Shown: positions 13,532-42,983, counted from the first letter of the stretch. The stretch is DNA of 64,000 nt from an uncultured virus (IMG/VR IMGVR_UViG_3300036944_000852) (IMGVR_UViG_3300036944_000852); one strand, 5' to 3'. Numbers and translations: made by a program. The notes: generated by a model not told the origin, from the letters alone.

Positions 13532-13556
13532 ATATTTAGTTGTTCTTTAATTATAG

Positions 13557-13628: not shown

Positions 13629-13658
13629 TTGATTGTATCTGTATTCTATACTATATTT

Positions 13659-22653: not shown

Positions 22654-22668
22654 GGAAAATAAGAAAAA

Positions 22669-25071: not shown

Positions 25072-25110
25072 TAGTAAAATAAGTAAGACTCAAGAAAGAG
25101 GTCGCCCCAG

Positions 25111-25341
25111 ATGGCAAGCAAAAAGTTCCTAACGCCAATTAACATTGTGCAAGGCGCTACGTTCCCAGTAGATGCTGATCAAGGCGACCTCTTTTTTAGG
25201 TCTGACATAGGTTCCATGTACACCTACGATGGCACCGGTTGGATTTCTATGACTGGCAGTGACATCACAAACGTGGACGGCGGAGACGCCTCAAGCTCAT
25301 ACAACATCAACTACGACGGTGGCGGACCGTCCTCTTTCTAG
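25111..25341 (+). CDS. Small virion protein
   Basis: KKFLT start like 22669; GDLFF.....Y.YDG..W; DGG motifs at the C-terminus. Confidence 0.6.
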   Translation: MASKKFLTPINIVQGATFPVDADQGDLFFRSDIGSMYTYDGTGWISMTGSDITNVDGGDASSSYNINYDGGGPSSF

Positions 25342-25359
25342 GAATAGGGAAATAAGACA

Positions 25360-27744
25360 ATGGCAGTCAGAATTCAATTTAGACGCGGTACCGCCGCTGA
25401 ATGGGCCTCGGCCAATCCAATGCTAGCCGCTGGTGAGCTCGGTTACGAGACAGATACCGCTCAGATGAAGATTGGTAACGGTTCTCTTACCTGGAGCGCC
25501 TTACCATACAGCGCAGTAAACGAGGCATACGTAGATAACGCGATTGCTAACGTAGTAGGTTTGGCCCCGGAAACACTGGACACCCTAAACGAGCTAGCTG
25601 CCGCCATGGGAGACAACCCAAGTTTCATCTCTGACATAGAGGACGACATTGACAGCGCCAGAGCTTATGCTACTGGTTACACTGATAATGCAATAGCTAA
25701 CCTTATAGCTTCCGCTCCTGCAGCTTTAGATACACTAAACGAACTAGCTGACGCTCTAGGGTCCGACGCGAACTTCAGTACTACAGTCTCAACAGCTCTA
25801 TCAGAGAGACTTCAATTTGTAGCTGACAACGTAGCCAACTACGAAGCTAATAACCCAATCATCGATGCAAATATTCTAGCTATCGAAGTAGACAGCGGAA
25901 ACATTAAGATTGGCGATGGCGTAAACGCTTGGAACACTCTAGTTTACGTGAATCAGGCATTCTTCTCTGGCATGTTAGATACTCACATCTCTGACACAAC
26001 CCAGATTCACGGAATAGCTAACACTGCAGAATTAGTGACCTCTACTGAACTGACAGAGGCCCTAGGTGACTACACAACAACCGACGACCTTGCTAACGGA
26101 TACGTAAGCACCGGTGAGATAGCAAACTACGCTCTGTTAACTGCCCTAGATTCATATGCCACTAACACCGCCCTAGCCCTGAAAGCTCCACTAGCTAGCC
26201 CTTCTTTCACTGGTACGGTGTCGCTTCCTGCAAGCATTGAGATCAACAACATCAGCATTGGCAACACCACAGCAACAGAGATCTCATACCTTGCCAACGT
26301 GTCATCTGACGTACAAAGTCAAATTGACACTAAAGCCCCACTAAACTCTCCTTCATTTACCGGGACTGTCGAACTTCCGACGACAACCAGCATTGGAGAC
26401 ATCACTTCTGCTGAATTGGAGCACCTGGATGGGGTAACCTCAGCTATCCAGCCTCAGCTTGACGGAAAACTTGCATCTTCGACCGCAGCCACCACCTACG
26501 CACCACTAGCGGATGCAACTTTGACTGGTACCGTTTCTCTTCCAGCAACTACCTCTATTGGTGATGTTTCGGGCACAGAGATAGGTTATGTAAATGGCGT
26601 AACCTCGGCTATTCAAACCCAACTAGATGCAAAGGCTCCCACAGAGAGCCCGACCTTCACAGGTAACGTTTCTGGTGTTACAAAAGCTCACGTAGGTCTC
26701 GGAAACGTGGACAACACCGCTGACGAAGACAAGCCAATCTCTGATGCAACTCAGACTGCATTGGATGCAAAGCTAGATCTTGCTGGCGGAACTCTTACTG
26801 GCCCATTGACCCTCTCGGGCGCACCAACCTCTGACCTACATGCAGCTACAAAGCTATATGTTGACGGCCTAGCAGCTGGAATTAACTTCCACCAGCCAGT
26901 GGTTGCCGCAACCGCTGGTAACCTAGCTGGTACATATGACAACGGAACCGCTGGCGTAGGTGCAACCCTTACCAAGGCATCGAACGGTGCAATCGGTACA
27001 ATTGACGGTGCATCGGTTTCTGTAGGTAACAGAATCCTTCTACGCGCACAGACTGACGCTAAAGAAAACGGCGTCTACGTGATTACTGCAGTTGGAAGCG
27101 CGAGCGCTCCATGGGTTATAACTCGTGCAGCAGACGCAGACAACAACCCAGCGGGCGAGTTGGCTAACGGAGACTTTGTATTCGTAACAAGCGGTTCAAC
27201 CAACGGATCAAAGGGCTTCATCCTAAACACCACAGGCACAATCACAATCGGAACAACAGAAGTTGCTTACGCACAGTTCAACGCATCTGAAGCGGTTATT
27301 GCTGGAACAAACATCAGCAAGGTCGGCGAGACAATCTCGGTTGTATCAAACCCAACATTCGCAAATGTTGTGACAGTGAGCGCTGGGGTTAAGTTCTCTG
27401 ACAACACTATTCAGACATCTGCTGGTGTTCCGTCTTTGACTCAGTTTATCCAGAAGACATCAAGCTACACTCTTAATGACCTAACTCTGATTGATGAAGT
27501 GATTGAGGTAGACAGCTCGTCTGCAACCACTATCACAATTCCAACTAACGCGACTCTAGCTTGGCCAGTAGGCGCGTCTGTGGACATCCTTCAGATAGGA
27601 ACCGGACAGGTGACAATTGCCGCTGCAGGTGGAGTTACCTTGAACTTTACGCCAGGAAACAAGCTCAGAACACGTTGGTCAAGCTGTACTATAATGAAAC
27701 GTGGTACTGACAGCTGGATCCTATACGGCGATCTAACAGCATAA
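25360..27744 (+). CDS. Long fibre protein with two Mtd_N-like units
   Basis: RIQFRRGTAAEW..ANP.LAAGE; AP.TLDTLNELA x2; KAPL.SP.FTG repeats; C-terminal ...W.LYGDL domain shared with 38315. Confidence 0.75.
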   Translation: MAVRIQFRRGTAAEWASANPMLAAGELGYETDTAQMKIGNGSLTWSALPYSAVNEAYVDNAIANVVGLAPETLDTLNELAAAMGDNPSFISDIEDDIDSARAYATGYTDNAIANLIASAPAALDTLNELADALGSDANFSTTVSTALSERLQFVADNVANYEANNPIIDANILAIEVDSGNIKIGDGVNAWNTLVYVNQAFFSGMLDTHISDTTQIHGIANTAELVTSTELTEALGDYTTTDDLANGYVSTGEIANYALLTALDSYATNTALALKAPLASPSFTGTVSLPASIEINNISIGNTTATEISYLANVSSDVQSQIDTKAPLNSPSFTGTVELPTTTSIGDITSAELEHLDGVTSAIQPQLDGKLASSTAATTYAPLADATLTGTVSLPATTSIGDVSGTEIGYVNGVTSAIQTQLDAKAPTESPTFTGNVSGVTKAHVGLGNVDNTADEDKPISDATQTALDAKLDLAGGTLTGPLTLSGAPTSDLHAATKLYVDGLAAGINFHQPVVAATAGNLAGTYDNGTAGVGATLTKASNGAIGTIDGASVSVGNRILLRAQTDAKENGVYVITAVGSASAPWVITRAADADNNPAGELANGDFVFVTSGSTNGSKGFILNTTGTITIGTTEVAYAQFNASEAVIAGTNISKVGETISVVSNPTFANVVTVSAGVKFSDNTIQTSAGVPSLTQFIQKTSSYTLNDLTLIDEVIEVDSSSATTITIPTNATLAWPVGASVDILQIGTGQVTIAAAGGVTLNFTPGNKLRTRWSSCTIMKRGTDSWILYGDLTA

Positions 27745-27761
27745 CATCAGGGAGAATTTAA

Positions 27762-29096
27762 ATGGCAAAGAAAGAAGCAGGCGCAAAGTCCTCTCAGCAG
27801 AATGACTTTTTGGCTCCGTTACCTGCAGAAAACGTCACAGCTACAGATGTTGGTACTAACAGACCATACAACAATGGAACGCTGACTGTTACTTGGACTA
27901 TAAACAGCCTATCTCCAGCTGCAACTACCTACACAATTAAAGACTCCAACAACAACCAACTAGGTACAGGCTCGCTACCGGCTCCAGTGAGCGGGACATA
28001 CTCCGTACAAGTTTCTGGATTGCTGTCAAACACCACATACACAGTGAACGTGACACTAACTAATGCGTCCGGTGACTCTGCTCCGTCTGCTGCAGCGCCA
28101 GTTTTAGTTACAACAGTCCCTCAGACTCCAGCTGCTCCAATAGCCAACACTACAGTTGCAGACCAAGACAGTGTAACTTGGGTTGCGCCAGCTAATGGTG
28201 GTAAGGCCATAACACTGTACGCATGGGCTTGTGATGACGGTAAACAGGACAGCACCGGACTAACCTCTATAACAGTGGCCCAGGAAGGTGTTGGTCCATC
28301 GACTAACGCTTACAGAGTTAGGGCAATTAACGCCAACGGTACATCAGAGTTTTCAAATTTCTCGAACTCCGTAGACACTCTCCCTCCATTCTTCCCTCCA
28401 TTCTTCCCGCCGTTCTTCCCTCCATTCTTCCCTCCATTCTTCCCGCCGTTCTTCCCCCCATTCTTCCCACCGTTCTTCCCTCCATTCTTCCCTCCATTCT
28501 TCCCACCGTTCTTCCCACCGTTCTTCCCACCTAGATTCCCATTCTTCCCACCGTTCTTCCCACCGTTCTTCCCACCTAGATTCCCATTCTTCCCACCTAT
28601 CTTCCCTGCGCACCGTTGTATTGCAGAGGGAACTTTGGTTGACACTCCTCGCGGTAAGATTCCGGTTGAGCAGCTACAAGCTGGCGACATGGTTCTGTCT
28701 GTCATAATTGACGAACTATCTGTCGAGGACAACACTCCAGGGGCATTCTCAATTGGTTCATCACTAACTCTGTCAGGTGCAAAGCCTGTAGAGACTCAGG
28801 TGACTGCGATCCTTGAGAGCATCAAGACTGCAATCGTCTACTTCAACGGTAACGAGTCAGCTAGATACTCTGCAGAGCAGCCACTGTTCGTAAAGGTCGG
28901 TGACTCATACGAAGTGAGACTAGCCGGTAAGCTGGCCGTAGGAGACTACCTAATCAAGGTGGACGAAGACGGATCATCTTCTGAAGAACTAATCACAGAA
29001 GTTACCACTCTAGACACCCCAACCAGGGTGTACCAGATATCCTGTGACCCATACCACTGGTTTATTGCTGGTGGATATCTATCCCACAATAAGTAA
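27762..29096 (+). CDS. Fn3-like domains + (PPFF)n tract + C-terminal Hint (intein-like) domain
   Basis: VTW..P.NGG..IT.Y...YRVRA.NANG.S (Fn3); PPFF repeats; Hint from Cys286 CIAEGTLV..P.G...VEQL..GD.VLS to VY.I....H.FIAGG.LSHNK*. Confidence 0.85.
   Translation: MAKKEAGAKSSQQNDFLAPLPAENVTATDVGTNRPYNNGTLTVTWTINSLSPAATTYTIKDSNNNQLGTGSLPAPVSGTYSVQVSGLLSNTTYTVNVTLTNASGDSAPSAAAPVLVTTVPQTPAAPIANTTVADQDSVTWVAPANGGKAITLYAWACDDGKQDSTGLTSITVAQEGVGPSTNAYRVRAINANGTSEFSNFSNSVDTLPPFFPPFFPPFFPPFFPPFFPPFFPPFFPPFFPPFFPPFFPPFFPPFFPPRFPFFPPFFPPFFPPRFPFFPPIFPAHRCIAEGTLVDTPRGKIPVEQLQAGDMVLSVIIDELSVEDNTPGAFSIGSSLTLSGAKPVETQVTAILESIKTAIVYFNGNESARYSAEQPLFVKVGDSYEVRLAGKLAVGDYLIKVDEDGSSSEELITEVTTLDTPTRVYQISCDPYHWFIAGGYLSHNK
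28383..28607 (+). repeat. 12-bp CCN-CCN-TTC-TTC coding tandem repeat
   Basis: 12 consecutive PPFF units (28383-28526), then PPRFPFF-PPFF-PPFF-PPRFPFF-PPIFP. Confidence 0.95.
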
Positions 29097-29101
29097 TAAG
29101 C

Positions 29102-29141
29102 AAAAAAAAGTAGCCGCCCCCAACCGGGCGGCTATTTTTTT
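29102..29141 (+). terminator. Rho-independent terminator after the fibre module
   Basis: TAGCCGCCC-CCAACC-GGGCGGCTA followed by a T run and preceded by an A run. Confidence 0.85.
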
Positions 29142-29203
29142 ATACTAAGATTGCAGTAAGCTATAGGATAGATAAAGCAATCATTAAACCCAAAGGAAAA
29201 ACT

Positions 29204-29938
29204 ATGAACCACTGGTTTACGAAAGATCGTTCAGAGACAGTCACAAACACAATGGGAGATAGAAAAATCCATAGCGGTATTTCTGTCATAAACCCAGCTA
29301 TGGGCATAAACATTTACAGGGGAGCCATATCTAAAGAAACTGGGCAAAAGCACATTAACACCTTGGAGTCGAACCTAAACGGACAGACTTCATTCTCGTG
29401 GGCAGGGGCCCAGGTAACAAACTCGGATGAAGTTGATTTAGAGGCTAGAAATGCAAAAGATTTTAAGTTTAATTCCAAGGGATTAGGACCTAGGAATGAC
29501 GAAAATGGAAAACTTTACGACATGCACGAAGAAGTTTTTCAAGCAGTTCGCGCATGCGTGAATGATTATGGGGATTACTGGGGCGTAGGAATGAACTTCT
29601 ACGAAGCGTTTAATTTTGTTAAGTATGAAGGCACCGGGACTCACTTTAAGGTCCATGCGGACCATGGTCCAACCTACGTGTGTACTGTTTCAGTTGTTGT
29701 GTATTTAAATGACGACTATGAGGGCGGAGAAATTATTTTCCCTCGATTTAATCTGACTCACAAACCTCAAGCGGGTGACATTATTATTTTCCCGTCAACA
29801 TATGTATACGAGCATTCATCTGAAGACATGATCTCTGGCACCAAGTACGCAGTTGTGATTATGACAGACTATAATGACAGAGACGAAGTAAACCACAGAG
29901 TGCCGCAAACAATCCAAGAATACGAACTTAAATACTAG
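29204..29938 (+). CDS. Prolyl 4-hydroxylase-like 2OG-Fe(II) oxygenase
   Basis: HAD, YLNDDYEGGE, PQAGDIIIFP, H.....SGTKY. Confidence 0.88.
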   Translation: MNHWFTKDRSETVTNTMGDRKIHSGISVINPAMGINIYRGAISKETGQKHINTLESNLNGQTSFSWAGAQVTNSDEVDLEARNAKDFKFNSKGLGPRNDENGKLYDMHEEVFQAVRACVNDYGDYWGVGMNFYEAFNFVKYEGTGTHFKVHADHGPTYVCTVSVVVYLNDDYEGGEIIFPRFNLTHKPQAGDIIIFPSTYVYEHSSEDMISGTKYAVVIMTDYNDRDEVNHRVPQTIQEYELKY

Positions 29939-29949
29939 ATCGAGGAACC

Positions 29950-30720
29950 GTGTCAGAAGAATCCCTAAAAACCTCAGAAGACTCTGCTGCAGAAGCAGAA
30001 AAGAAGAGTCAAGAGGAACAAAAAAATATTCAAAATCGACTAGCGAACTGGTACCAAGTAGACGAGGTCACATGGAGCTCCGCCGAGGAAGTGTCTCCCG
30101 GCAGCGGAATCTGGGTCTATCACGATGTTCTACCCAAAGAGATGAACATCATTCAAAGGATCGAAGAAGTCATCGACAGCCCAGATAATAATTATCACTA
30201 TCAAGAGGCAATGGTTGGGTATTCTATGAAGATCCCCGAGTACAGAGACTGCGTAGATTTTAAGTATAAGGAAAATGATTTTGATGACGATCAAACTGAG
30301 TGGGGCGATAAGCTAAGACAGCTAGCTAAAGATACTAAGTATCGTCAGCTACAAATTGTAAAAGACTATACAAGACGCTACAACGTAGGAGAGCTTCGCT
30401 ACTGGGAGGCAACTAACTACGTCCGTTATGGCGTAGGCCAGCACTTCCAAGAGCACCATGATCACGGCTACTCGTATAATTGCGTAGTATCTCTAGTCGC
30501 ATACCCGAATGATGACTACGAAGGCGGAGAGCTTTTCTTTAGGCTACAAAATATAAGCGCAAAAGCTCGCGCAGGAGATGTCTTTATTTTCCCGTCAAAC
30601 TTTATGTACCCTCACCGCGCCATGCCTGTCAGATTTGGAACCAAGTACTCGATGGTTACCATGCTGGACTATTCGGATAAGTACCACAGTGCAGAATTCT
30701 TTAGGGACACAGACAGCTAA
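29950..30720 (+). CDS. Prolyl 4-hydroxylase-like 2OG-Fe(II) oxygenase
   Basis: HHD, NDDYEGGELFF, FPSNFMYPH.A.PV..GTKY. Confidence 0.88.
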   Translation: MSEESLKTSEDSAAEAEKKSQEEQKNIQNRLANWYQVDEVTWSSAEEVSPGSGIWVYHDVLPKEMNIIQRIEEVIDSPDNNYHYQEAMVGYSMKIPEYRDCVDFKYKENDFDDDQTEWGDKLRQLAKDTKYRQLQIVKDYTRRYNVGELRYWEATNYVRYGVGQHFQEHHDHGYSYNCVVSLVAYPNDDYEGGELFFRLQNISAKARAGDVFIFPSNFMYPHRAMPVRFGTKYSMVTMLDYSDKYHSAEFFRDTDS

Positions 30721-31466
30721 TGAAGCAAATTTCAGTACAAAAACTGTTTCCGCCCGGAGGGAATGCTGACATATATCAGCTGCCGGCACGTAGGCCATGG
30801 ATGGATGATACGGAAGATAAGCACGCATACATGTGCTTCCCTCTAAATATCACTAACCGCTTAGGTTGGGCAATATCGTTCCCTGAAGATATTAGATTCA
30901 TCTGGGATGGCATCACAGACACAACGCCAGATCACATCACGATACTTGAAGGTGAAAAATTTTTAAGTAGATCTAGAGGGAACGCTACCATTGGCTTTCT
31001 CACTGGTTTGAAGTTTACAACCGATGAGAAAACAACAATGTTGGCAATGCCAGTGCCGAACTTATTTGTACGTGGCGCTCAGTGCTACACCACCCTAATG
31101 AGCACCTCCTTCTACTTTCATATGCTTCCAGTTGCTTGGAGGCTTACCGAGCCTAACGTAGAGATTTACATTCCTGCAGGCACCCCCGTGGCGACTGTTA
31201 TTCCAATATCACTAACTGACCTAGAAGAGGATTACGAGTTGACTGTAAATGAAACGCCGGCATCTTCCGAGTACTGGGAAGAAGTGACTAAGTATGGGGA
31301 TGCTAACGAAATAAAGAATGGCGTAGGAGACTGGTCAAAAATGTATAGAGAAGCAGTTGACTATACCGGCGCCTCTGTCGGCTCCCACGAGACAAAATCT
31401 ATAAAGCTAAAAACTGTTACATGCCCATTTACCGGGGACTCCTATGAGGTAGAGGACGTGGAGTAG
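30720..31466 (+). CDS. DUF6065-like protein
   Basis: R.WMD.T...HAY.C.PL...N.LGW; P.PN; W.LT.P. Confidence 0.7.
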   Translation: MKQISVQKLFPPGGNADIYQLPARRPWMDDTEDKHAYMCFPLNITNRLGWAISFPEDIRFIWDGITDTTPDHITILEGEKFLSRSRGNATIGFLTGLKFTTDEKTTMLAMPVPNLFVRGAQCYTTLMSTSFYFHMLPVAWRLTEPNVEIYIPAGTPVATVIPISLTDLEEDYELTVNETPASSEYWEEVTKYGDANEIKNGVGDWSKMYREAVDYTGASVGSHETKSIKLKTVTCPFTGDSYEVEDVE

Positions 31467-32207
31467 GTGGACACTAAAAAAATTAAGTTTGTAGTCAACA
31501 GACCGTGGCTAAATAGAGACAGTGATTCTACCCCCAAGCCGATAATTAAAACCATTCCCGACTGGTATAGAAACGGGGACAGGTTTGCCAAACACCCGAT
31601 GACAGGGGAGTATTGGAAAGACCCGCAAAATGGCGGAAAAATCCCTACATGGAAGTCATGCCCGTCTGTCTACGACATCATGGGGTCCGGGTATGCGTAC
31701 AGAACCCCTTGCGATATCGAGTTTAAGGAAAACTCTTACGGTCAAATAGAGGCAAAAGTCTTAGACGAAAAGAATAAAGATTTTATACAGGTCAGAATGC
31801 CTATGCCAGGCTTTAAAGCACCGATGGGTTACCACGAAGTTCACTTCGCATGGTGGGCAGACTGGGCAGTAGAGCTGCCGGCGGGCTATAGCGCACTGTA
31901 CTCGCAGCCTTTCAATAGATTTGAGCTACCTTTTATAACTACAAGCGGCATCATCGATAACGATAAGGTTCACTTGCCTGGAACAATGCCGTTCTTTGTG
32001 GCTAAAGGGTTTCAGGGGATACTTCCTGCAGGCACGCCATATGCTCAAATTATCCCGTTCAAGCGGGAGAACTGGGAGTCAGAAATTGTAGACTCTATCG
32101 GCTATGAAGACATGCTCAAAAAGAACATGGAAAATAGCGATAAATATAGGGTTCCAGATGGTGGCGTATACCAGAGAGATGTCTGGGAGAGACGCAAGTA
32201 TGAGTAA
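31467..32207 (+). CDS. Hypothetical protein, DUF6065-related type
   Basis: IPDWY; T.K.CP...D....GY; P.GYS.L...P.NRF.LPF...SGIID.D; GTP.AQIIPFKRE.W. Confidence 0.55.
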   Translation: MDTKKIKFVVNRPWLNRDSDSTPKPIIKTIPDWYRNGDRFAKHPMTGEYWKDPQNGGKIPTWKSCPSVYDIMGSGYAYRTPCDIEFKENSYGQIEAKVLDEKNKDFIQVRMPMPGFKAPMGYHEVHFAWWADWAVELPAGYSALYSQPFNRFELPFITTSGIIDNDKVHLPGTMPFFVAKGFQGILPAGTPYAQIIPFKRENWESEIVDSIGYEDMLKKNMENSDKYRVPDGGVYQRDVWERRKYE

Positions 32208-32221
32208 GGTAGGATAATCTA

Positions 32222-32890
32222 GTGAATAAAGAATATGCAAATGACGACATAACCCCCTACCAGTCGATAATTCCATCAGGTTTTTTCGGCGACTCCGTGG
32301 ACAATATTGTCGCAATAGAGAACTTTATGACAGATGAAGAGCTAACTTATCTGAATAATTTTGCAAAAAATAACCAGCTATGGGACGTCACAGAGACCCA
32401 CTACAGTGAAGATGGCACTGTAATCTACGATTCAAGCTACTGGGACCACCGAGTAGCTACAGCTCCTCTCTTAAAAGAAGCTGATCCAAAAGTTGTAGAG
32501 CTGATTTCAAACATGCAAGCTAGACTAAAAGAAAAAGTGGATCAGTTCTTTAACGTGGACGCCCACCCAACTAGTCCAGCGATTGTCCGATGGCTCCCAG
32601 GTCAGCGCCAGCAGCCACACGCGGATAAAGAGCTACACGAAGGCGAAGGCAGAGGAAAGCCAAACGACTTCCCTTACTACGATATTTCAGGACTTTTCTA
32701 CTTAAATGATGAGTATGAGGGCGGAGAGCTTTACTTCCCTAACCAGGGGATTCAGTTTAAGCCAAAGGCTGGAGCCGCATATTTCTTCCCGGGTGACATG
32801 AATTATATCCACGGTGTGACAGAAATCAAGTCCGGGATTAGGTATGTTTGCCCATTTTTCTGGACTGTCAAATCCAACCAAATTAAATAA
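32222..32890 (+). CDS. Prolyl 4-hydroxylase-like 2OG-Fe(II) oxygenase
   Basis: HAD, YLNDEYEGGELYF, HGVTEIKSGIRY; leaderless TAGGAT-N6-GTG start. Confidence 0.88.
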   Translation: MNKEYANDDITPYQSIIPSGFFGDSVDNIVAIENFMTDEELTYLNNFAKNNQLWDVTETHYSEDGTVIYDSSYWDHRVATAPLLKEADPKVVELISNMQARLKEKVDQFFNVDAHPTSPAIVRWLPGQRQQPHADKELHEGEGRGKPNDFPYYDISGLFYLNDEYEGGELYFPNQGIQFKPKAGAAYFFPGDMNYIHGVTEIKSGIRYVCPFFWTVKSNQIK

Positions 32891-32930
32891 CATATAGAAT
32901 TAGATCAGACAAAGAGAGTAAGGGTTTAAA

Positions 32931-33710
32931 TTGCATTTAGCGAAAAAGCTACACGAAGAAGTTTTCCTATACGAAGATGTTTTTGCTGATCCAGCTGGAC
33001 TGATAAGCCTAATCGAAGAGCTGGACGAAGACGAGACTACCCACTCTGTCATCCCAGAATGGGGATTTTGGTTCTCAAATAGCCGAGATGGTCACAGCTT
33101 TGGTAGCAAGAAGGACTTTGCTCCGGAAAGACTCTCAGAGCTAGAGTCATCACGCAAGGCTGATGTAGAGAAGGTAGTTAGCACTATCCAAACAGCAGTC
33201 AGTGATGTGGCGCACGCTTACTATCGCGACCGCGGCCTTGAGGGCGAGCCAAACATGTCACCATTTGCTGGTGTTATGAAGTACCGCCCAGGCTGCGAGA
33301 TGGGTGCACACTTCGATGCTCAGGCTGGTGACAGAACCCTCAAGTACTCTATTGTCCTTTATTTGAACGAGGACTACGAGGGTGGAGAGATTTCTTTTAT
33401 TGTCCGCCCTTACGACTTAAGAAATCCAAAAAATTTCCACCTTCAGCCAATCCCGGACGCTGATGACGAAAGAAATGCAGATCTTGTTGACTTTACCCTA
33501 AAACCTAAAGCCGCATCTGCTCTAATCTTCCCATCGACACATCCTTTTAAGCACCAGGTTCACATCGTTAAGAGTGGAGATAAGTACATCTTCCCTGGTT
33601 TTGTTTTCCAAGAAGACTTTAATCCAGAGAACGAAGACTCAAGACGCGAATATAACGCTGGATCTTTATTCGAGACACCAGAAGAAGGAAAGTACTTCGA
33701 CGAAGAGTAA
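32931..33710 (+). CDS. Prolyl 4-hydroxylase-like 2OG-Fe(II) oxygenase
   Basis: HFD, YLNEDYEGGE, FPS..P..H.V..VKSGDKY. Confidence 0.88.
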   Translation: MHLAKKLHEEVFLYEDVFADPAGLISLIEELDEDETTHSVIPEWGFWFSNSRDGHSFGSKKDFAPERLSELESSRKADVEKVVSTIQTAVSDVAHAYYRDRGLEGEPNMSPFAGVMKYRPGCEMGAHFDAQAGDRTLKYSIVLYLNEDYEGGEISFIVRPYDLRNPKNFHLQPIPDADDERNADLVDFTLKPKAASALIFPSTHPFKHQVHIVKSGDKYIFPGFVFQEDFNPENEDSRREYNAGSLFETPEEGKYFDEE

Positions 33711-33716
33711 GTCTTT

Positions 33717-34334
33717 ATGTACGAAGTATTATCCCCTAAGGTTCTTTATTTTCCAAAATTTTTAGTAGATCACGAAAGATTTCTAGAGATCGTAGAGAAG
33801 ACTTCCACTTGGTCAGAGTGGAAGCCTAGTGATTCCAGCGCAGCCGAGTTCTCCTACGGATCACTAAAAACTTTTGGTACGCAGGAGTATAAAAATACCT
33901 TAGAGCCGAACAGTAAAAGCCAGATTAAATACATTGTCAACACAATAAAAAAAGTTAATCTAGCCTGCGGATACGAATATCTAAAGAGTCAAAATGCATC
34001 CGACTCAGAGTTGCTCAATTTGAAAAGATCTGTACTTTTAGATGACATAACTATAGGTATTAAGAAATACAGGGAAAACGGCCCAGCACTCGGGCCACAC
34101 CCGGATACTGACCTAGAGAATCCCCGAGATGAGTTCAGTATAACTTTCTACCCTAATGATAATTACGATGGCGGCGAGTTGAACTTCCCTGAGATTGATC
34201 TAAAAATAAAGCCAAAAGCCGGCAGTGTGGTAGTATATCCATCGAAGCACATACATGAATCTCTACCAGTATTTTCCGGCGAGAAGTATGTAACTAATTA
34301 TGTATATCTAGCAGCGGAGAAATTGTGGAATTAG
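33717..34334 (+). CDS. Prolyl 4-hydroxylase-like 2OG-Fe(II) oxygenase
   Basis: HPD, NDNYDGGELNF, HESLPVFSGEKY. Confidence 0.88.
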   Translation: MYEVLSPKVLYFPKFLVDHERFLEIVEKTSTWSEWKPSDSSAAEFSYGSLKTFGTQEYKNTLEPNSKSQIKYIVNTIKKVNLACGYEYLKSQNASDSELLNLKRSVLLDDITIGIKKYRENGPALGPHPDTDLENPRDEFSITFYPNDNYDGGELNFPEIDLKIKPKAGSVVVYPSKHIHESLPVFSGEKYVTNYVYLAAEKLWN

Positions 34335-34981
34335 AGTACAAGATACCGTATGAAAATGTAGTGTATTTTCCGGGCATAGTCGACAACGTTGACGAGATTA
34401 TCGAGGCAATAGAGACCACGAACAGCATTGCAATATCCCCCTGGGAAGTCTGGTACGCAAGCAGCGACACCTCTGGATATGCTTACGGCGAAGTTAAGTC
34501 TATGAGCAAGCACCTACTCAGACAAGAGTCGGACCCAGCTATCGTCGAGAAATCTGAATATATAATTTCTACCCTGGTAGACGCGATGTCGATCGCAGCT
34601 AAGAAGTATTCTGAACTATACAATATTGACGATGCGTCACTAGATTACGCACTGCATGCGCTAAACATGGAAGGCACGAAGTACGGCATAAACAAGTACT
34701 ACGAACGCATGTACATGGGGCCGCACGTTGATTGGAATGAGCAAAACTCAGACATCACTTACACAATCGTGGTCTATCTAAATGATAATTATGAAGGTGG
34801 AGAACTCTACTTTGTAGATCCCGATATCGACATAAAAATAAAGCCAGAAAAGGGAAGTATCGTGATGTTCCCATCCACCTTGCCGTATCTACACCAATCT
34901 TGCGACATCATTAACGGCAGAAAGATGCTCATAACGCATCACTGGAAAAATGATTCGCTAGTAAAGAGAGACGAGTTTTAA
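34325..34981 (+). CDS. Prolyl 4-hydroxylase-like 2OG-Fe(II) oxygenase
   Basis: HVD, YLNDNYEGGELYF, FPS..PYLH......GRK. Confidence 0.88.
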   Translation: MELEYKIPYENVVYFPGIVDNVDEIIEAIETTNSIAISPWEVWYASSDTSGYAYGEVKSMSKHLLRQESDPAIVEKSEYIISTLVDAMSIAAKKYSELYNIDDASLDYALHALNMEGTKYGINKYYERMYMGPHVDWNEQNSDITYTIVVYLNDNYEGGELYFVDPDIDIKIKPEKGSIVMFPSTLPYLHQSCDIINGRKMLITHHWKNDSLVKRDEF

Positions 34982-35814
34982 TGGAAATCCCGGTACTTAA
35001 CTTCAGCAGCAAGCCAGAGCTATACTCCGAGCTCGAATCAGTAAAGGATAAGTATGTCTCTAACGGGATCGTAGTGCTTAGAGGTCTACACTTTACTGAA
35101 GCAGAGCAGGGCGAATTGACCCTATCTCTTGGGGACTTGATTGGGTGGTTCCCCAACCACAGTAGCAGCGATATCGGAAGAAAGTACACAGAGAGCCACT
35201 CCGGTAATCAGAATGTTGCTGGATCAAAAGGTGATCAGGTTATCTTAGATTGGCACATAGAGCACGTAGACTACGACCAGCAGTGCCCATTAGTGGCAGG
35301 GCTTTGGAATATGCAGCATTTTAATTGCGCTCCAGGGACTGGGTTAACCTACTTTGTCGACACCACAGAAGTTTTTAAGCTCCTAACAGAAGAAGAGCAG
35401 AGCTTCCTATCTTCCAGTGAGATTTCATGGGTAGACGCATACGGATTTGGCCCCCACCAAGGAGTCGCAGTGGTGCCTCACTGGTTGAACGGAAGCCCAA
35501 CCATACGTATAGAAATAACAAAGCATGTGAAGACAGAGCTAGTTTCGGTGCATGGAGAAGTGCCAACTGACCTTCAAACCGCTGAGTTCAAACGTATCTA
35601 CAAAAAGATCATTGATCTTATCGAGAATAATACAGATATAAGAATGACGCACCAGTGGGAACACGGAGACGTCGTAATTCCAGACTTATTCAAACTCGCG
35701 CACGCAGTTACTGGTGGATTTGATCCTAAAGATCGAACATTTACTGGGCACTGGTTATTCTCTAAAGATCCAACCATACTTACAGACGAGGAGCTCCCTT
35801 ATGCCTGGAGATAG
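34981..35814 (+). CDS. TauD/TfdA-like Fe(II)/2OG dioxygenase
   Basis: G.VVLRG, WHIE, G.T.FVD, HQW..GD.VI.D....H......R. Confidence 0.75.
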   Translation: MEIPVLNFSSKPELYSELESVKDKYVSNGIVVLRGLHFTEAEQGELTLSLGDLIGWFPNHSSSDIGRKYTESHSGNQNVAGSKGDQVILDWHIEHVDYDQQCPLVAGLWNMQHFNCAPGTGLTYFVDTTEVFKLLTEEEQSFLSSSEISWVDAYGFGPHQGVAVVPHWLNGSPTIRIEITKHVKTELVSVHGEVPTDLQTAEFKRIYKKIIDLIENNTDIRMTHQWEHGDVVIPDLFKLAHAVTGGFDPKDRTFTGHWLFSKDPTILTDEELPYAWR

Positions 35815-36682
35815 TGAAGTAGAGATCATCGGAGACTTTACTGTAAAGAAGTTATACCCCAAAATCTGGGTATTTAGTAAAGCAATCCAGAACCCGGATA
35901 AGTTGATTGACTACTATGTTAATGACCCAATCAATGTAAACAGATGGGTGCCTTGGTACACATTCGGGGATATGATCAGTGACTTTGGGCTGGGCTTTGG
36001 GAATATAGACCACTTTCCCAGTAAAGAAGAGTGGACTTCAAATTTTGCTGAGTGCGATGACTTGTATAAATTAGAGCTAGCTCACACATTTTATGATGCA
36101 TCAGCTCTATATGTTGAAAGTACTAAAGCTACATTGCCGAATTGGGAGTCACCTAACTGGGGGATTGCTAGGTATTTCCCGGATGTAGAGGATTTTTCAG
36201 GTGGAAGAACTATGCAATACCACACTGATTATCAGCAGGATAGAAAAGAGTATCCCGGCGCAAAAAACATGATTACTGCGGTCGGCTACCCTAATGACGA
36301 TTACAAAGGTGGGGAAATTTCATTTCGCATCGTAAAAGAGGGGACAAAAGATGAAGTAGAAAGAGAAATTATCTACAAGCCAGAAGCTGGCGATTTAATC
36401 ATCTTTCCTTCGGTGTTTCCTTACTATCACGGCGTCCTAAACGTAAAGAAAAATCCTAAGTACATCATAAGATTTTATTGGAACTCTGTAGAAGAGGCCA
36501 CTGAAGACTACGAGTACTTCTCTAATAAATATGGAGATAACTGGGATCAACTAGAGCTAGTCAGACGCAAGAGAGACAAAGCTATGGTGGAGGACCCCGT
36601 GTTGAGGCTTCGGTTGTCCATGCGGGAGTACTATGAAATGCTAGAGGCTGGCACTCTAGATGAATACTTTGAAGAGGTATAA
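35801..36682 (+). CDS. Prolyl 4-hydroxylase-like 2OG-Fe(II) oxygenase
   Basis: HTD, NDDYKGGEISF, KPEAGDLIIFPS..PYYHGV.....KY; start reset to ATG 35801 after GAGGAG. Confidence 0.85.
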   Translation: MPGDSEVEIIGDFTVKKLYPKIWVFSKAIQNPDKLIDYYVNDPINVNRWVPWYTFGDMISDFGLGFGNIDHFPSKEEWTSNFAECDDLYKLELAHTFYDASALYVESTKATLPNWESPNWGIARYFPDVEDFSGGRTMQYHTDYQQDRKEYPGAKNMITAVGYPNDDYKGGEISFRIVKEGTKDEVEREIIYKPEAGDLIIFPSVFPYYHGVLNVKKNPKYIIRFYWNSVEEATEDYEYFSNKYGDNWDQLELVRRKRDKAMVEDPVLRLRLSMREYYEMLEAGTLDEYFEEV

Positions 36683-36684
36683 GT

Positions 36685-37146
36685 ATGTCTGATCTAAATA
36701 TGACAAACCAGACGATGGTAGACGAGTTTAAGGCTAGAGCAGCCGCCGGTAGAGGCGACTCTTATATGTTGACTATATCCAGAGATGGCGAGTCACCAGT
36801 ACGGTCCATATACTTCTATGACAACGCGATAGACGCCACTACTGGATACACAGCATATACAGACTGGGGGTTTGCTAAGGACTTCCTAACCGTAGAACTC
36901 TATGAACCAACCGGTAGAGTGCACAGTAAAGTTCTTAGACGCCCGCGAGGCGGCGAGTGTGTTTTTGAAAGAGCACAGTATTACAAGGTAGCTGAAATAC
37001 TAAACGCCACTAAGCCAAAAATTGATGAAGAAGTGTTCAACTATCTGACCTATGAGTTTGCTAAGCTATTCTCAAAGGACAACCAAAGATTTCAAGTAGA
37101 TCGCTTTTTCACAGATCTAGGGTATACAGGAGAAATTCATGACTAA
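36685..37146 (+). CDS. Hypothetical protein
   Basis: 153-aa ORF with GAGG RBS inside the oxygenase operon; no motif recognised. Confidence 0.65.
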   Translation: MSDLNMTNQTMVDEFKARAAAGRGDSYMLTISRDGESPVRSIYFYDNAIDATTGYTAYTDWGFAKDFLTVELYEPTGRVHSKVLRRPRGGECVFERAQYYKVAEILNATKPKIDEEVFNYLTYEFAKLFSKDNQRFQVDRFFTDLGYTGEIHD

Positions 37147-37876
37147 CATCGAGACCACACCAACAGAGTTTGGCGATAAAGGCTACTTAAAAGATGACAT
37201 TATCTTTTACGATAACTTTCTCACTGAAGAAGAGGCAGAAAAGATCATAGCTTTCTTCGAGGACCCAGAGCAGCCATGGAGCATGTCTGCATTCTTCGAG
37301 TCATACGGCATGAGTATTATGCCCCAGGACCCTTTGCTAGAGAAGTATGGGCTATCGATTGACTACCTAGGGACCTTGGCAGACCGCATGCACAAGGCGG
37401 TAGAGGATGCTCACCTGCGTCCAGTAAAGTCAGTATCTTCTCACGCCCAGAAGTGGAATGTTGGCGCATTTGCCCCTTTCCACTCGGACAACACCGACAT
37501 GGAGGGGAACTGGTCGGCATGGGAGAAGAGTAAGCTTGTCTGCCTCCTCTACATCAACGATGATTATGAAGGCGGCGAGTTAAACTTCAGAGACCACCCT
37601 ATCAAGCTAAAGCCAAAGGCCAGGCAGCTAATCACGTTCCCTGGTGGCATCAACAATGTCCACGAAGTTACAGTAGTCGAAGGGTCAACCCGTCATACAA
37701 TTGGCGCTTTCTGGGACTACGCCGAATCCACATACTCCGAAGAACGCATAAAGGAGTGGGAGGACGAGATTTCCAAGGTCCGTGAAGAACAGAAGGTTAT
37801 GCAGGACGAGTGGAAAGACCAGCTAGATAAGGGTGTACACCCCCTTACAGAAGGCGGAAGCCAGGGCGGCTACTAA
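37139..37876 (+). CDS. Prolyl 4-hydroxylase-like 2OG-Fe(II) oxygenase
   Basis: HSD, YINDDYEGGELNF, HEVTVV..STR. Confidence 0.88.
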   Translation: MTNIETTPTEFGDKGYLKDDIIFYDNFLTEEEAEKIIAFFEDPEQPWSMSAFFESYGMSIMPQDPLLEKYGLSIDYLGTLADRMHKAVEDAHLRPVKSVSSHAQKWNVGAFAPFHSDNTDMEGNWSAWEKSKLVCLLYINDDYEGGELNFRDHPIKLKPKARQLITFPGGINNVHEVTVVEGSTRHTIGAFWDYAESTYSEERIKEWEDEISKVREEQKVMQDEWKDQLDKGVHPLTEGGSQGGY

Positions 37877-37940: not shown

Positions 37941-41698
<3,758 letters not shown>

Positions 41699-41699
41699 A

Positions 41700-42707: not shown

Positions 42708-42725
42708 GAATGGTAAAATATAACT

Positions 42726-42983
42726 ATGGCCGCTACTAATTTCCCGAACTCCCCTTCAATAGGGCAGCGCGTAACCACCGATGGAGTGGTCCGCGAGTGG
42801 AACGGCGTCGCCTGGGTGTCAGTCGGATCTACCGTAGTCGGACCTACCGGTCCTACTGGACCTACTGGCCCTGCCGGTCAAGGTGTACCAACCGGAGGCA
42901 CAACTGGTCAAGTTTTGATTAAAGCTAGTAATGATGACTATGATTTTATCTGGTCTGACACCATTGACGGAGGAACACCCTAA
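42726..42983 (+). CDS. Short collagen-like virion protein
   Basis: NFP.SP..GQ...W.G..W, (GPT)3, GVP.GG.TGQVL.K; leaderless TAAAAT-N6-ATG start. Confidence 0.7.

What the first reader, a model, noticed from the sequence alone, without database searches (positions are those of the whole stretch)
27762..37876. Candidate new system: PPFF-repeat/Hint virion protein followed by a battery of nine Fe/2OG oxygenases
Seen: the last gene of a fibre module encodes Fn3-like domains, a 75-residue tract of almost only Pro and Phe, and a terminal Hint domain. The next 12 genes, all co-oriented, include 8 prolyl-4-hydroxylase-like oxygenases, 1 TauD-like oxygenase and 2 DUF6065-type proteins, sitting between two structural modules. 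Established: this oxygenase fold hydroxylates peptidyl Pro and other residues, and Hint domains autoprocess. Inference: the PPFF tract is a repetitive substrate that is hydroxylated (possibly then glycosylated or cross-linked) and exposed or ligated by the Hint domain. That would be a RiPP-like modification system for a phage appendage, for example an adhesive fibre tip. Caveat: a terminator at 29102-29141 separates the gene from the oxygenases, so the link is positional only.
Basis: partly seen in the sequence, partly recalled or inferred. Interest (0 to 1): 0.9.

Follow-up and report, generated by a model that had tools for sequence, protein, structure and literature searches.

The report
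Phage Pro-Phe tail with matched hydroxylases
A large uncultured phage encodes a fibre-region protein ending in a greasy Pro-Pro-Phe-Phe polymer capped by a self-cleaving domain, followed by a conserved set of collagen-type hydroxylase-like enzymes found in related phages only where the polymer is proline-rich, so the polymer is their likeliest, still untested, target.

Summary
Gene 27762-29096 encodes Fn3 domains, a 77-residue PPFF tract and an intein-like (BIL/Hint) domain starting at Cys286. A strong bidirectional terminator follows. Then come 12 co-oriented genes: 8 P4H-type 2OG oxygenases, 1 TauD, 2 DUF6065-type proteins and 1 unknown.

New evidence:
- In 100 non-redundant related viral loci, a Pro-Pro-rich tract and a downstream battery of at least 3 oxygenases coincide without exception (40 with both, 60 with neither). 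There are about 10 switches on the tree and 6 of 6 independent pairs agree (p=0.03).
- Starting from a battery oxygenase, 59 of 61 observable loci have the tract gene upstream. The other 2 are cut inside the gene.
- FG-type tracts are followed by a different, unnamed oxygenase-fold family.
- The collagen-like fibres are a poor alternative substrate. Pro is almost never at the Y position, and near-complete relatives have batteries but no collagen.
- DUF6065 has a dUTPase fold. It matches the conserved-Cys dUTPase-fold protein that Iyer et al. 2010 noted in the cyanophage Syn9 dioxygenase array.

No chemistry has been shown. This scan found the same pairing earlier on four other genomes. Verdict: a well-supported candidate for a tailoring system acting on a virion protein. 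Interest is high.

The parts
27762..29096 (+). Fn3-Fn3-(PPFF)n-Hint protein (P0001, 444 aa), the candidate substrate
   Evidence: Translation; Pfam fn3; more than 518 homologues in the protein database; 479 and 620 relatives in viral contigs.
28383..28613 (+). Pro-Phe tract, aa 208-284, encoded by a degenerate 12-bp tandem repeat
   Evidence: TRF finds period 12, 16.6 copies, 84% matches. Pro codons vary and Phe is always TTC.
28617..29093 (+). Hint/BIL-like autoprocessing domain, Cys286 to Lys444 (ends HNK)
   Evidence: Profile A3 against PDB: 2lwy bacterial intein-like domain E 3.4e-10, gp41-1 mini-intein 8.5e-9. Cys286 is the only invariant C-terminal residue in A1. Across A3 the first residue is Cys in 27 of 32 and Ser in 5 of 32; block B is S-x-x-Q in the window.
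29102..29141 (.). Bidirectional intrinsic terminator between the substrate gene and the battery
   Evidence: A8, stem TAGCCGCCC, loop, stem GGGCGGCTA, T7, read directly. The scan lists it on the - strand.
29204..29938 (+). Battery oxygenase 1 (PF13640); core member in PPFF-type loci
   Evidence: Pfam 42.7 bits. HxD...H plus Lys. Nearest solved structure is B. anthracis P4H, 3itq/5hv0, E 2e-5. Orthologues 56-69% identical.
29950..30720 (+). Battery oxygenase 2 (PF13640); core member in all Pro-Pro loci
   Evidence: Pfam 47.9 bits; catalytic triad; orthologues 42-75% identical in conserved order.
30720..31466 (+). DUF6065-a: dUTPase-fold protein with invariant Cys39; the IIDxD motif is lost
   Evidence: Pfam 86.4 bits. 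AF2 pLDDT 90.2. VIA Z 9.4, rmsd 2.7 A over 118 residues to dUTPase 5y5o. Motifs.
31467..32207 (+). DUF6065-b paralogue (phrog_7084); keeps SGIIDxD and PAGTPxAQ motifs
   Evidence: PHROG E 2.8e-32; alignment A2; divergent copies also follow some FG-type genes.
32222..32890 (+). Battery oxygenase 3 (PF13640), the most conserved core member
   Evidence: Pfam 36.7 bits. Orthologues 49-77% identical with 59 invariant columns. At least 592 relatives in viral contigs.
32931..34981 (+). Three further PF13640 oxygenases (32931-33710, 33717-34334, 34325-34981); accessory members
   Evidence: Pfam 42.1, 41.9 and 52.6 bits; triads intact. Close orthologues occur only in the nearest relatives L024 and L037. 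For 34325, the nearest solved structure is B. anthracis P4H.
34981..35814 (+). TauD/TfdA-family oxygenase; accessory member
   Evidence: Pfam 74.8 bits. Homologues in only 4 ORFs of the first 82 loci searched.
35714..36682 (+). Battery oxygenase (PF13640); core-like member. The listed GTG start overlaps TauD, so the true start may lie later.
   Evidence: Pfam 36.9 bits; orthologue-like hits in most Pro-Pro loci at 26-40% identity.
36685..37146 (+). Unknown 153-aa protein inside the battery
   Evidence: No Pfam or PHROG hit. Homologues in L024 (64%) and L077 (36%).
37139..37876 (+). Battery oxygenase (PF13640); core member, last gene of the battery
   Evidence: Pfam 34.6 bits; orthologues 35-66% identical in nearly all Pro-Pro loci.
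22279..27744 (+). Upstream fibre module (Mtd_N adaptor 22279-22653; 800-aa protein 22669-25071; Mtd_N fibre 25360-27744): context
   Evidence: Pfam Mtd_N E 2e-15 and 6e-18; PHROG tail-fibre families.
37941..47488 (+). Downstream fibre module (fibre-assembly-like 37941-38315; collagen-repeat fibres 38315-41698 and 42983-47488): context and rival substrate
   Evidence: Pfam Collagen E 7e-85 and 2e-48. Pro at X in 65 and 38 triplets, at Y in only 4 and 1.

Best explanation
This is a substrate-plus-tailoring-enzymes module of a large, probably actinobacterial, phage. The fibre-module gene makes a protein with a conserved N-terminal peptide, two Fn3-type domains and a C-terminal (PPFF)n polymer. 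An intein-like Hint domain caps the polymer.

Inferred steps:
1. The Hint domain performs an N-to-S acyl shift at Arg285-Cys286 and removes itself. This leaves the polymer as the free C-terminal tail. Hint-less relatives end exactly there.
2. Before or after that, the conserved core battery (P4H-type oxygenases like 29204, 29950, 32222, 35714 and 37139, plus the two dUTPase-fold DUF6065 proteins) oxidises the tract. The most likely chemistry is hydroxylation of the Pro-Pro prolines. Other members may act on other positions or on Phe beta-carbons.
3. The product is a stiffer, more polar, possibly adhesive or cross-linkable tail on a virion appendage.
4. The terminator lets the structural substrate be made in excess over the enzymes.

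Shown here: the anatomy, intact catalytic residues, the conserved operon, and the strict co-variation of tract chemistry with enzyme set. Inferred: every chemical step, the cleavage, virion location and function.
For: 1. Association from the gene side. Among 100 non-redundant loci with at least 4 kb downstream, 40 have a tract with Pro >=28% and at least 3 oxygenase ORFs downstream. The other 60 have a tract with Pro <=19% and fewer than 3. None is discordant (first set 31/29/0). Oxygenases lie downstream and almost never upstream.
2. The link is not simple inheritance. Each trait changes 10 times on the N-terminal-domain tree. Independent pairs on supported branches agree 6 of 6 (sign test p=0.031). 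The Hint-domain tree, from the region between tract and battery, also shows 6 changes in each trait.
3. Association from the enzyme side. Of the 80 loci taken from the 32222-like oxygenase, 59 have a Pro-aromatic tract ORF upstream, and 57 of those are Fn3 homologues. Another 19 have under 1.5 kb of upstream sequence. The remaining 2 are cut inside the Hint domain. All 4 of the MAG contigs with visible upstream sequence have the tract gene as well.
4. Whole contigs. Pro-Pro-type contigs hold 4-14 PF13640 hits clustered after the gene (15 contigs). FG-type contigs hold 0-5, far from the gene (14 contigs).
5. The core order is conserved at 40-77% identity, so these are distinct enzymes rather than recent duplicates. 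All 12 window oxygenases keep HxD...H and the basic 2OG-binding residue.
6. The nearest solved relatives are B. anthracis collagen-type P4H. The second Pro-Pro tract type, [SA]PPGFF, contains the X-Pro-Gly motif.
7. FG-type tracts are followed by another tandem family in 48 of 60 loci, against 3 of 40 Pro-Pro loci. That family also has the oxygenase DSBH fold. The enzyme set therefore switches with repeat chemistry.
8. Hint-less homologues stop right after the tract.
9. There is viral precedent: PBCV-1 P4H hydroxylates Pro-Ala-Pro-Lys repeats (PMC3634087, one passage read).
Against: - No mass, activity or expression data exist. No RNA run is listed for the locus.
- A strong terminator separates the gene from the battery in this window.
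- The window's tract (PPFF) lacks the X-Pro-Gly motif of collagen P4H substrates.
- It is unexplained why a monotonous repeat should need 5-10 different oxygenases.
- DUF6065 has a nucleotide-enzyme fold, and its distant homologues sit beside thymidylate synthase or RNR in other viruses. That hints at non-protein chemistry.
- Tract, Hint domain and battery are adjacent, so exchange as one cassette could produce co-variation without a functional link. The Hint tree that argues against this is poorly supported (only 1 starred pair).
- Trees were built with the 'quick' method. The Pro and oxygenase thresholds were chosen after seeing the first 80 loci.
- The block B His of the Hint domain is Gln in the window, so cleavage may be slow or absent.
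- Four more oxygenases elsewhere in the window, and oxygenase clusters far from the gene in FG-type contigs G004 and G005, show that such enzymes also have other uses.
Confidence: 0.6

Rival explanations
1. The battery hydroxylates the collagen-repeat tail fibres encoded just downstream (38315-41698 and 42983-47488), as P4H does for collagen. The PPFF gene is merely a neighbour.
For: Two very large collagen-repeat fibres start 440 bp after the battery. The nearest solved relative is a collagen-type P4H. The closest relatives with the extended battery (G013, G014) also have large collagen ORFs right after it. Iyer et al. 2010 proposed collagen-like proteins as dioxygenase substrates in bacteria (PMC2938197, passages read).
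Against: In the window's fibres Pro sits at the X position (65 and 38 triplets) and almost never at the Y position (4 and 1) that collagen P4H targets. Only 5 of 15 Pro-Pro-type contigs have any collagen hit. G009 (100% complete), G010 (92%), G020 (80%) and G025 (82%) have 6-14 oxygenases and no collagen hit. By contrast, 11 of 14 FG-type contigs have a collagen-like ORF but no battery. This could still hold for the accessory members (32931, 33717, 34325, TauD) seen only in collagen-bearing close relatives.
Confidence: 0.08
2. The battery makes or modifies a small molecule, free amino acid or nucleotide (secondary metabolite or DNA precursor). It co-varies with the tract only because both travel in one hypervariable cassette.
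For: Iyer et al. 2010 read the homologous Syn9 array (10 dioxygenases plus a dUTPase-fold protein with a conserved Cys) as secondary-metabolite synthesis. DUF6065 has a dUTPase fold, and the b paralogue keeps IIDxD and AQ motifs. Distant homologues lie beside thymidylate synthase and RNR. TauD-family enzymes often act on small molecules.
Against: Co-variation is perfect in 100 of 100 loci across about 10 switches. A different oxygenase-fold family replaces the battery when the repeat changes. No peptide synthetase, halogenase or nucleotide-modifying partner is present in the battery. The oxygenases are P4H-type, not TET/JBP (only one weak sub-threshold Tet_JBP hit).
Confidence: 0.17
3. The oxygenases are host-directed auxiliary genes. 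They would hydroxylate host proteins such as translation factors, or scavenge nutrients, as is assumed for the many 2OG oxygenases of aquatic phages.
For: Four more oxygenases lie among auxiliary-type genes at 8335-14243. FG-type contigs G004 and G005 have oxygenase clusters far from the fibre gene. Structural neighbours of the fold include EF-Tu-directed P4H (for the HKFF family).
Against: This does not explain the strict, directional adjacency to Pro-Pro tract genes, or the switch of enzyme family with tract type.
Confidence: 0.08

Closest known systems
Chlorovirus PBCV-1 prolyl 4-hydroxylase acting on virus-encoded Pro-rich repeats
   Same: A virus-encoded P4H-type 2OG oxygenase that hydroxylates prolines in short tandem repeats such as Pro-Ala-Pro-Lys (PMC3634087, one passage read).
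   Different: That is a single enzyme in a eukaryotic virus, with no Hint cap and no aromatic repeat. Here there are 5-10 distinct enzymes plus dUTPase-fold proteins, next to one dedicated substrate gene. I did not compare the sequences directly.
Tandem dioxygenase array of Synechococcus phage Syn9 (Iyer, Abhiman, de Souza, Aravind 2010, PMC2938197)
   Same: A phage array of many non-identical classical 2OG dioxygenases, plus a protein with a conserved Cys and the dUTPase fold (passages read). The window's battery has the same two components.
   Different: Syn9 also has a JmjC member and Trp halogenases. Its array was read as metabolite synthesis, and no substrate protein was named. Here the array is tied to a repeat-tract protein. 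I did not inspect the Syn9 locus.
Bacterial intein-like (BIL) domains, A and B type
   Same: The best solved match is a BIL domain (2lwy). The domain has an N-terminal Cys/Ser nucleophile and a C-terminal His-Asn without a +1 nucleophile, as described for A-type BILs. BILs occur in hypervariable regions of non-conserved proteins and cleave rather than splice (PMC7765530, passages read).
   Different: The domain sits at the extreme C-terminus of a phage fibre-region protein, after a polymer tract. Block B His is Gln in the window. Variants ending in VIS or VIA lack HN.
Bacillus anthracis collagen-type P4H (3itq, 5hv0)
   Same: It is the nearest solved sequence relative of 29204 and 34325 (E 2e-5 to 5e-5), with the same triad.
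   Different: Similarity covers only about 60-90 residues. Its known model substrate, (Pro-Pro-Gly)n, is recalled from memory and not from any call.
Self-cleaving C-terminal chaperone domains of phage tail fibres and spikes (Peptidase S74; recalled, no call)
   Same: A C-terminal domain that removes itself from a phage fibre protein after doing its job.
   Different: Unrelated fold and chemistry (Ser-Lys dyad, not a Hint thioester). No Peptidase S74 hit is among the Pfam matches listed for P0001.
Hydroxyproline-rich adhesive or wall proteins (plant extensins; mussel foot proteins, the latter recalled)
   Same: Pro-rich repeats with aromatic residues are hydroxylated by P4H and then glycosylated or cross-linked (extensins: abstract of PMC4769139 seen in the search listing).
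   Different: These are eukaryotic secretory-pathway systems. The resemblance is functional speculation only.

Membership tests
2OG-Fe(II) oxygenase, P4H-type (PF13640) | Pfam score above the gathering cut-off | tested here: met
   All 8 battery genes score 34.6-52.6 bits against a cut-off of 27.
2OG-Fe(II) oxygenase, P4H-type (PF13640) | HxD/E...H iron triad and a basic residue for 2OG about 10 residues after the distal His | tested here: met
   H, D and distal H are invariant in all 12 window oxygenases, and Lys or Arg is present in all 12. Assigning that residue to 2OG binding is inferred from alignment position.
2OG-Fe(II) oxygenase, P4H-type (PF13640) | Peptidyl-proline hydroxylase activity | not testable with these tools
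   The only support is the nearest solved relative being B. anthracis P4H.
Collagen P4H substrate | X-Pro-Gly motif in the substrate | tested here: not met
   The window's tract is PPFF with no Gly. The [SA]PPGFF tracts of related loci do contain Pro-Pro-Gly. The window's collagen fibres have Pro at Y in only 5 of 338 triplets.
Hint superfamily (BIL/intein-like) | Profile or sequence match to Hint domains | tested here: met
   Profile A3 hits 2lwy (BIL) at E 3.4e-10 and mini-inteins down to 1e-4. Pfam Hint_2 is just under its cut-off at 26.7 against 28.4.
Hint superfamily (BIL/intein-like) | Cys/Ser/Thr nucleophile as first residue | tested here: met
   Cys286 is invariant in A1. In A3 it is Cys in 27 of 32 and Ser in 5 of 32.
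Hint superfamily (BIL/intein-like) | Block B Thr-x-x-His | tested here: not met
   The window has Ser-Ala-Glu-Gln. Across A3 the fourth position is Gln 15, His 12, Glu 5. The motif definition is recalled from memory.
Splicing intein | C-terminal His-Asn followed by a Cys/Ser/Thr +1 residue and a C-extein | tested here: not met
   His-Asn is present, but the next residue is Lys and the protein ends there. It is therefore not a splicing intein. This matches the description of A-type BILs.
DUF6065 (PF19541) | Pfam score above the cut-off | tested here: met
   30720-31466 scores 86.4 bits against 26.6. 31467-32207 has no Pfam hit but aligns with it at 16% identity, shares the invariant W, C, G and P, and hits the local two-sequence HMM family.
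dUTPase superfamily | dUTPase beta-fold | tested here: met
   VIA Z 9.4, rmsd 2.7 A over 118 aligned residues. Ranks 1-21 are dUTPase or dCTP-deaminase superfamily members or viral dUTPase-related proteins, then Z falls below 5. Foldseek E 5e-4.
dUTPase superfamily | Catalytic motifs and dUTP hydrolysis | tested here: inconclusive
   The b paralogue keeps IIDxD-like and AQ-like stretches; the a paralogue lost the first. The motif definitions are recalled, no C-terminal P-loop-like arm was identified, and activity is not testable here.
TauD/TfdA (PF02668) | Pfam score above the cut-off | tested here: met
   74.8 bits against 27, covering 239 of 267 profile positions.
RiPP biosynthetic cluster | Short precursor with a leader and core peptide, recognised by tailoring enzymes | tested here: not met
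   The candidate substrate is a 444-aa multidomain protein. Its conserved N-terminal 20 residues have no shown leader role. The resemblance is in logic only.

The most novel reading that the evidence does not exclude
These phages carry a modular 'repeat-tail tailoring' system that has not been described. A virion-appendage protein (N-peptide, Fn3, Fn3) ends in an aromatic polymer. The polymer's chemistry (Pro-Pro-Phe-Phe, Pro-Pro-Gly-Phe-Phe or Phe-Gly type) dictates which family of non-haem iron oxygenases is encoded next to it. For Pro-Pro tracts that is P4H-type enzymes plus dUTPase-fold partners; for FG tracts it is a new unnamed DSBH family. The enzymes would convert the polymer into a poly-hydroxylated, extensin-like or mussel-glue-like material. 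The Hint thioester would then not merely be hydrolysed: it would ligate the modified tail covalently to another virion protein or to the host envelope. The same logic would explain the long-unexplained dioxygenase arrays of cyanophages.
Probability: 0.3. Interest if true: 0.9.

Novelty: new variant of a known kind. Interest (0 to 1): 0.78.

Why it matters
Aquatic phages carry many 2OG oxygenases, often in tandem arrays. These arrays were described in 2010 and no substrate has been assigned. This locus, together with hundreds of relatives, offers a concrete and testable substrate: a genetically adjacent Pro-aromatic polymer whose composition predicts which enzyme set is present.

If confirmed, it would be the first multi-enzyme oxidative tailoring pathway for a phage structural protein. 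It would give DUF6065 and a further unnamed oxygenase-fold family a working context. It would also add a new use of Hint domains, capping a polymer tail. Finally, it would point to hydroxylated aromatic-proline polymers as a new kind of phage adhesion or stabilisation material. Synthetic peptides and co-expression make the test straightforward.

Tried and rejected
- Near-identity DNA search of the region against 50,697 phage records found no match.
- A tblastn of P0001 against the same records found only 8 weak hits to the Hint part and no full-length homologue.
- The window's own assembly is not held. G001 is a near-identical 24-kb fragment, not independent evidence.
- DUF6065 and TauD gave no sequence hit in the PDB. 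The HKFF profile gave none either.
- I expected DUF6065 to be a cupin or oxygenase and rejected that: it has a dUTPase fold.
- I first suspected several exceptions in the reverse test. They came from printing only two ORFs per locus. The three remaining cases (L159, L160, L171) are cut inside the Hint domain.
- Expression: no RNA holder is listed for window 27000-33000. There are only 3 DNA runs, two holding 0.94 of the words. I did not lay reads.
- A genome-contig scan with alignment A1 failed for lack of a conserved stretch. The scan with A4 found only 9 short MAG contigs binned to unrelated phyla, probably mis-binned phage DNA, so no host could be named.
- Promoter-like sites in the region are no more frequent than in shuffles (15 against 15.8).
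- Complex prediction was not used: an enzyme with its substrate is a poor case for it.
- Literature searches for DUF6065 (0 papers) and for phage + hydroxyproline + tail fibre + prolyl hydroxylase (11 papers, none on this) found no prior description. Subscription journals are not covered.

Full report
**What is there**

The window looks like part of a large phage of actinobacteria. Its primase-helicase is 48% identical to those of ~190-kb Microbacterium phages and 54% to Actinomycetia phage DSL-LC01. It also carries WhiB, PhoH and RNR genes.

Gene 27762-29096 (+) is the last gene of a fibre module whose upstream genes carry Mtd_N adaptors and tail-fibre PHROG families. Its 444-aa product has:
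- a conserved N-terminal peptide
- an Fn3 domain at aa 37-112, over the Pfam cut-off, followed by a second conserved region
- a 77-residue tract (aa 208-284) that is 96% Pro plus Phe in its core
- a 159-residue C-terminal domain beginning at Cys286 and ending His-Asn-Lys

The tract is encoded by a degenerate 12-bp tandem repeat (84% matches) in which Pro codons vary. It is the only Pro-aromatic tract ORF in the window.

**The C-terminal domain**

Pfam Hint_2 falls just under its cut-off. A profile of 32 family members finds a solved bacterial intein-like (BIL) domain first (2lwy, E 3.4e-10), then mini-inteins.
- The first residue is Cys in 27 of 32 members and Ser in 5. Cys286 is the only invariant residue of this domain in alignment A1.
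- His-Asn at the end with no +1 nucleophile fits the description of A-type BILs, which cleave but do not splice (PMC7765530, passages read).
- One defining motif is not canonical: the block B His is Gln in the window (family: Gln 15, His 12, Glu 5).
- Homologues of 238-330 aa lack the Hint domain and stop right after the tract.

I take this as the best sign that the mature product is Fn3-Fn3-tract with the polymer as a free C-terminal tail. That is an inference.

**The battery**

Eight are PF13640 oxygenases, all above the cut-off. There is one TauD, one DUF6065, its 16%-identical paralogue and one unknown.
- All 12 oxygenases of the window keep the HxD...H triad and the basic residue after the distal His.
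- The nearest solved relative of two battery members is the collagen-type P4H of Bacillus anthracis.
- DUF6065 is not an oxygenase. A confident model (pLDDT 90.2) has the dUTPase fold: VIA Z 9.4, rmsd 2.7 A over 118 residues, with ranks 1-21 all from that superfamily or its viral relatives (Foldseek E 5e-4).
- DUF6065 has an invariant Cys. The b paralogue keeps IIDxD-like and AQ-like stretches that the a paralogue has lost.

**Is the neighbourhood more than chance?**

The family is large: more than 518 proteins in the protein database, and 479 and 620 relatives in viral contigs. I fetched the best 80 loci for each of two family alignments with 10-kb flanks. I scanned all ORFs with HMMs built from the window's own enzymes.

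The tracts fall into two chemistries:
- Pro-Pro tracts: PPFF/PFF/PYF with about 42% Pro, and [SA]PPGFF with about 33% Pro. The latter contains Pro-Pro-Gly.
- FG-type tracts: F[ST]PFG(A)FG and kin, with Pro at most 19%.

Among 100 non-redundant loci with at least 4 kb downstream:
- All 40 Pro-Pro loci have at least 3 oxygenase ORFs downstream, and all 40 have at least one DUF6065-type ORF.
- All 60 FG-type loci have fewer than 3 oxygenase ORFs.
- No locus is discordant (the first set gave 31/29/0).
- Oxygenases lie downstream and almost never upstream.

On a tree of the N-terminal domain, with the tract columns excluded, each trait changes 10 times. The six independent pairs on supported branches all agree (sign test p=0.031). 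With 60 rows the result was 4 of 4. A tree of the Hint domain, which lies between tract and battery, also shows 6 changes in each trait, but only one supported pair.

Whole-contig searches with PF13640 confirm the local HMM. The 15 Pro-Pro-type contigs have 4-14 hits clustered after the gene. The 14 FG-type contigs have 0-5 hits, tens of kb away or beside an RNR.

**The reverse test**

I started from the most conserved battery oxygenase (32222-like; at least 592 relatives). The best 80 loci, at 65-92% identity, gave:
- 59 with a Pro-aromatic tract ORF upstream, 57 of them Fn3 homologues of P0001
- 19 with too little upstream sequence to judge
- 2 cut inside the Hint domain, whose sister loci show the whole gene

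In 185,579 species genomes the oxygenase occurs only on 9 short MAG contigs. Of these, 4 show the tract gene, 1 is cut inside the Hint domain, and 4 have under 200 bp of upstream sequence.

Limits: these samples are the closest relatives only, and the thresholds were fixed after I had seen the first set.

**Anatomy of the battery**

Across Pro-Pro loci the order is conserved at 40-77% identity: (29204-like), 29950-like, DUF6065-a, DUF6065-b, 32222-like, then 35714-like and 37139-like. These are therefore distinct, conserved enzymes rather than recent duplicates.

The window's extra members (32931, 33717, 34325, TauD, 36685) have close orthologues only in the nearest relatives L024 and L037.

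**The enzyme set switches with the repeat**

FG-type genes are followed, usually 21-60 bp downstream, by 1-4 tandem paralogues of an unnamed ~220-aa family. It has an N-terminal HKFF motif and invariant His and Glu residues.
- It occurs in 48 of 60 FG loci against 3 of 40 Pro-Pro loci.
- It is absent from the window and from all 80 oxygenase-ascertained loci.
- Its model (pLDDT 83.6) has the double-stranded beta-helix oxygenase fold. The best matches are 3bvc and 2rg4 (TM 0.64-0.70), then ThoJ, PHD1/2, a Pseudomonas P4H and FtmOx1.
- In the first sample, the FG-type loci that lack it have a divergent DUF6065-b-like gene right after the tract gene.

Each repeat chemistry therefore has its own accessory set. 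That is what a substrate-enzyme relation predicts.

**Rivals**

*Collagen.* The battery is followed by two huge collagen-repeat fibres. However, their Pro sits at X (65 and 38 triplets) and almost never at Y (4 and 1). Only 5 of 15 Pro-Pro-type contigs have a collagen hit. Near-complete genomes G009, G010, G020 and G025 have 6-14 oxygenases and none. By contrast, 11 of 14 FG-type contigs have a collagen-like ORF without a battery. The accessory members of the window could still serve the collagen fibres.

*Small molecule or nucleotide chemistry.* Iyer et al. [quoted passage not shown] Distant DUF6065-b homologues lie beside thymidylate synthase in halovirus HSTV-2 and after RNR in cyanophage S-RIM4. 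This reading does not explain the strict co-variation with tract chemistry, unless tract, Hint domain and battery are exchanged as one cassette. My weakly supported Hint tree argues against that but does not exclude it.

*Host-directed auxiliary enzymes.* This fits the window's second oxygenase group but not the battery's adjacency.

**Mechanism proposed**

The following is inferred except where marked.
1. The structural gene is transcribed strongly and mostly terminated at 29102-29141. Read-through or a separate start supplies catalytic amounts of enzymes. In many relatives the first oxygenase follows within 4-30 bp.
2. The core oxygenases hydroxylate the tract, most likely the Pro-Pro prolines. 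The several conserved enzymes may serve different ring positions, the two Pro positions, or Phe beta-carbons.
3. The DUF6065 pair has an unknown role.
4. The Hint domain then removes itself at Arg285-Cys286.

The result would be a stiff, polar-decorated aromatic tail on a fibre-associated protein, plausibly for adhesion or cross-linking. Virion location and function are not shown.

**Known or new**

The components are known kinds: P4H-type oxygenases, a viral P4H acting on viral Pro-rich repeats (PBCV-1; one passage of PMC3634087), cyanophage dioxygenase arrays and BIL domains.

What I did not find in print (searches; DUF6065 in 0 papers):
- the pairing of the arrays with a Hint-capped aromatic-proline polymer
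- the repeat-matched switch of enzyme family

This scan had already noted the same pairing on four other genomes. Those notes gave me the leads to the Iyer and BIL papers and to the idea that the enzyme type follows the repeat type. I re-tested all of this here on independent loci.

**Verdict**

I give 0.6 for the tract being the battery's oxidised substrate. Interest is 0.78.

Noticed in passing
window 8335-9009 (+), 9006-9626 (-), 9839-10456 (+), 13629-14243 (+): A second, scattered group of four 2OG-Fe(II) oxygenases with intact HxD...H triads lies among auxiliary-type genes (HAD hydrolase, PhoH, RNR), away from any fibre gene. FG-type relatives G004 and G005 have a comparable remote cluster. 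These enzymes therefore have at least one other use.
   Followed up: partly
loci L005, L009, L036, L041, L080 and others, 21-60 bp downstream of FG-type tract genes (e.g. L009:8032-10027): An unnamed family of ~215-240 aa tandem paralogues follows FG-type tract genes. It has an N-terminal HKFFxRxLxNDL motif, invariant His and Glu residues and no Pfam hit. Its AF2 model has the DSBH oxygenase fold (best matches 3bvc and 2rg4, TM 0.64-0.70).
   Followed up: yes
L083 (halovirus HSTV-2, gene 40) and L084 (cyanophage S-RIM4, RW110999_204): Distant homologues (24-33% identity) of the DUF6065-b paralogue occur in about 49 haloarchaeal tailed virus records and one cyanophage. They sit next to thymidylate synthase or after RNR. 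This suggests that the family's ancestral role is in nucleotide metabolism.
   Followed up: partly
window 54093-54857 (+) and 55015-56118 (+); 438-1874 (-): Three further enzymes lie elsewhere in the window: an APS-kinase-like/cytidylyltransferase-like protein, a GT2 glycosyltransferase with TPR repeats, and a Nol-type carbamoyltransferase. Any of them could decorate hydroxyl groups (sulfation, glycosylation, carbamoylation). This is pure speculation and no link was tested.
   Followed up: no
L106 (~10974), L114 (~10755), L131 (~14100), L138 (~17639), all + strand: Some loci have a second ORF with a Pro-aromatic tract (34-82 residues, 39-47% Pro) several kb downstream of the battery. A battery may therefore serve more than one tract protein.
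   Followed up: no
window 38315-41698 and 42983-47488: The collagen-repeat fibres use Gly-Pro-Thr and Gly-Pro-Gln triplets (Thr or Gln at Y, Pro or Ala at X) in runs of up to 32 and 53 triplets.
   Followed up: partly
window 6606-7301 (-): A serine recombinase (integrase/invertase PHROG families) lies in an otherwise lytic-looking large phage genome.
   Followed up: no
L165-L173 (genome contigs): Battery-bearing contigs are binned into MAGs of unrelated phyla (Bacteroidota, Verrucomicrobiota, Actinomycetota, Alphaproteobacteria). This most likely reflects mis-binned phage contigs and is not host evidence.
   Followed up: partly
L022, L033, L039, L070, L076, L081 (Hint start): Some family members have Ser instead of Cys as the first Hint residue, and endings without His-Asn. 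Others end in VIS, VIA or TIA. The family therefore spans both A-type-like and B-type-like BIL endings.
   Followed up: partly
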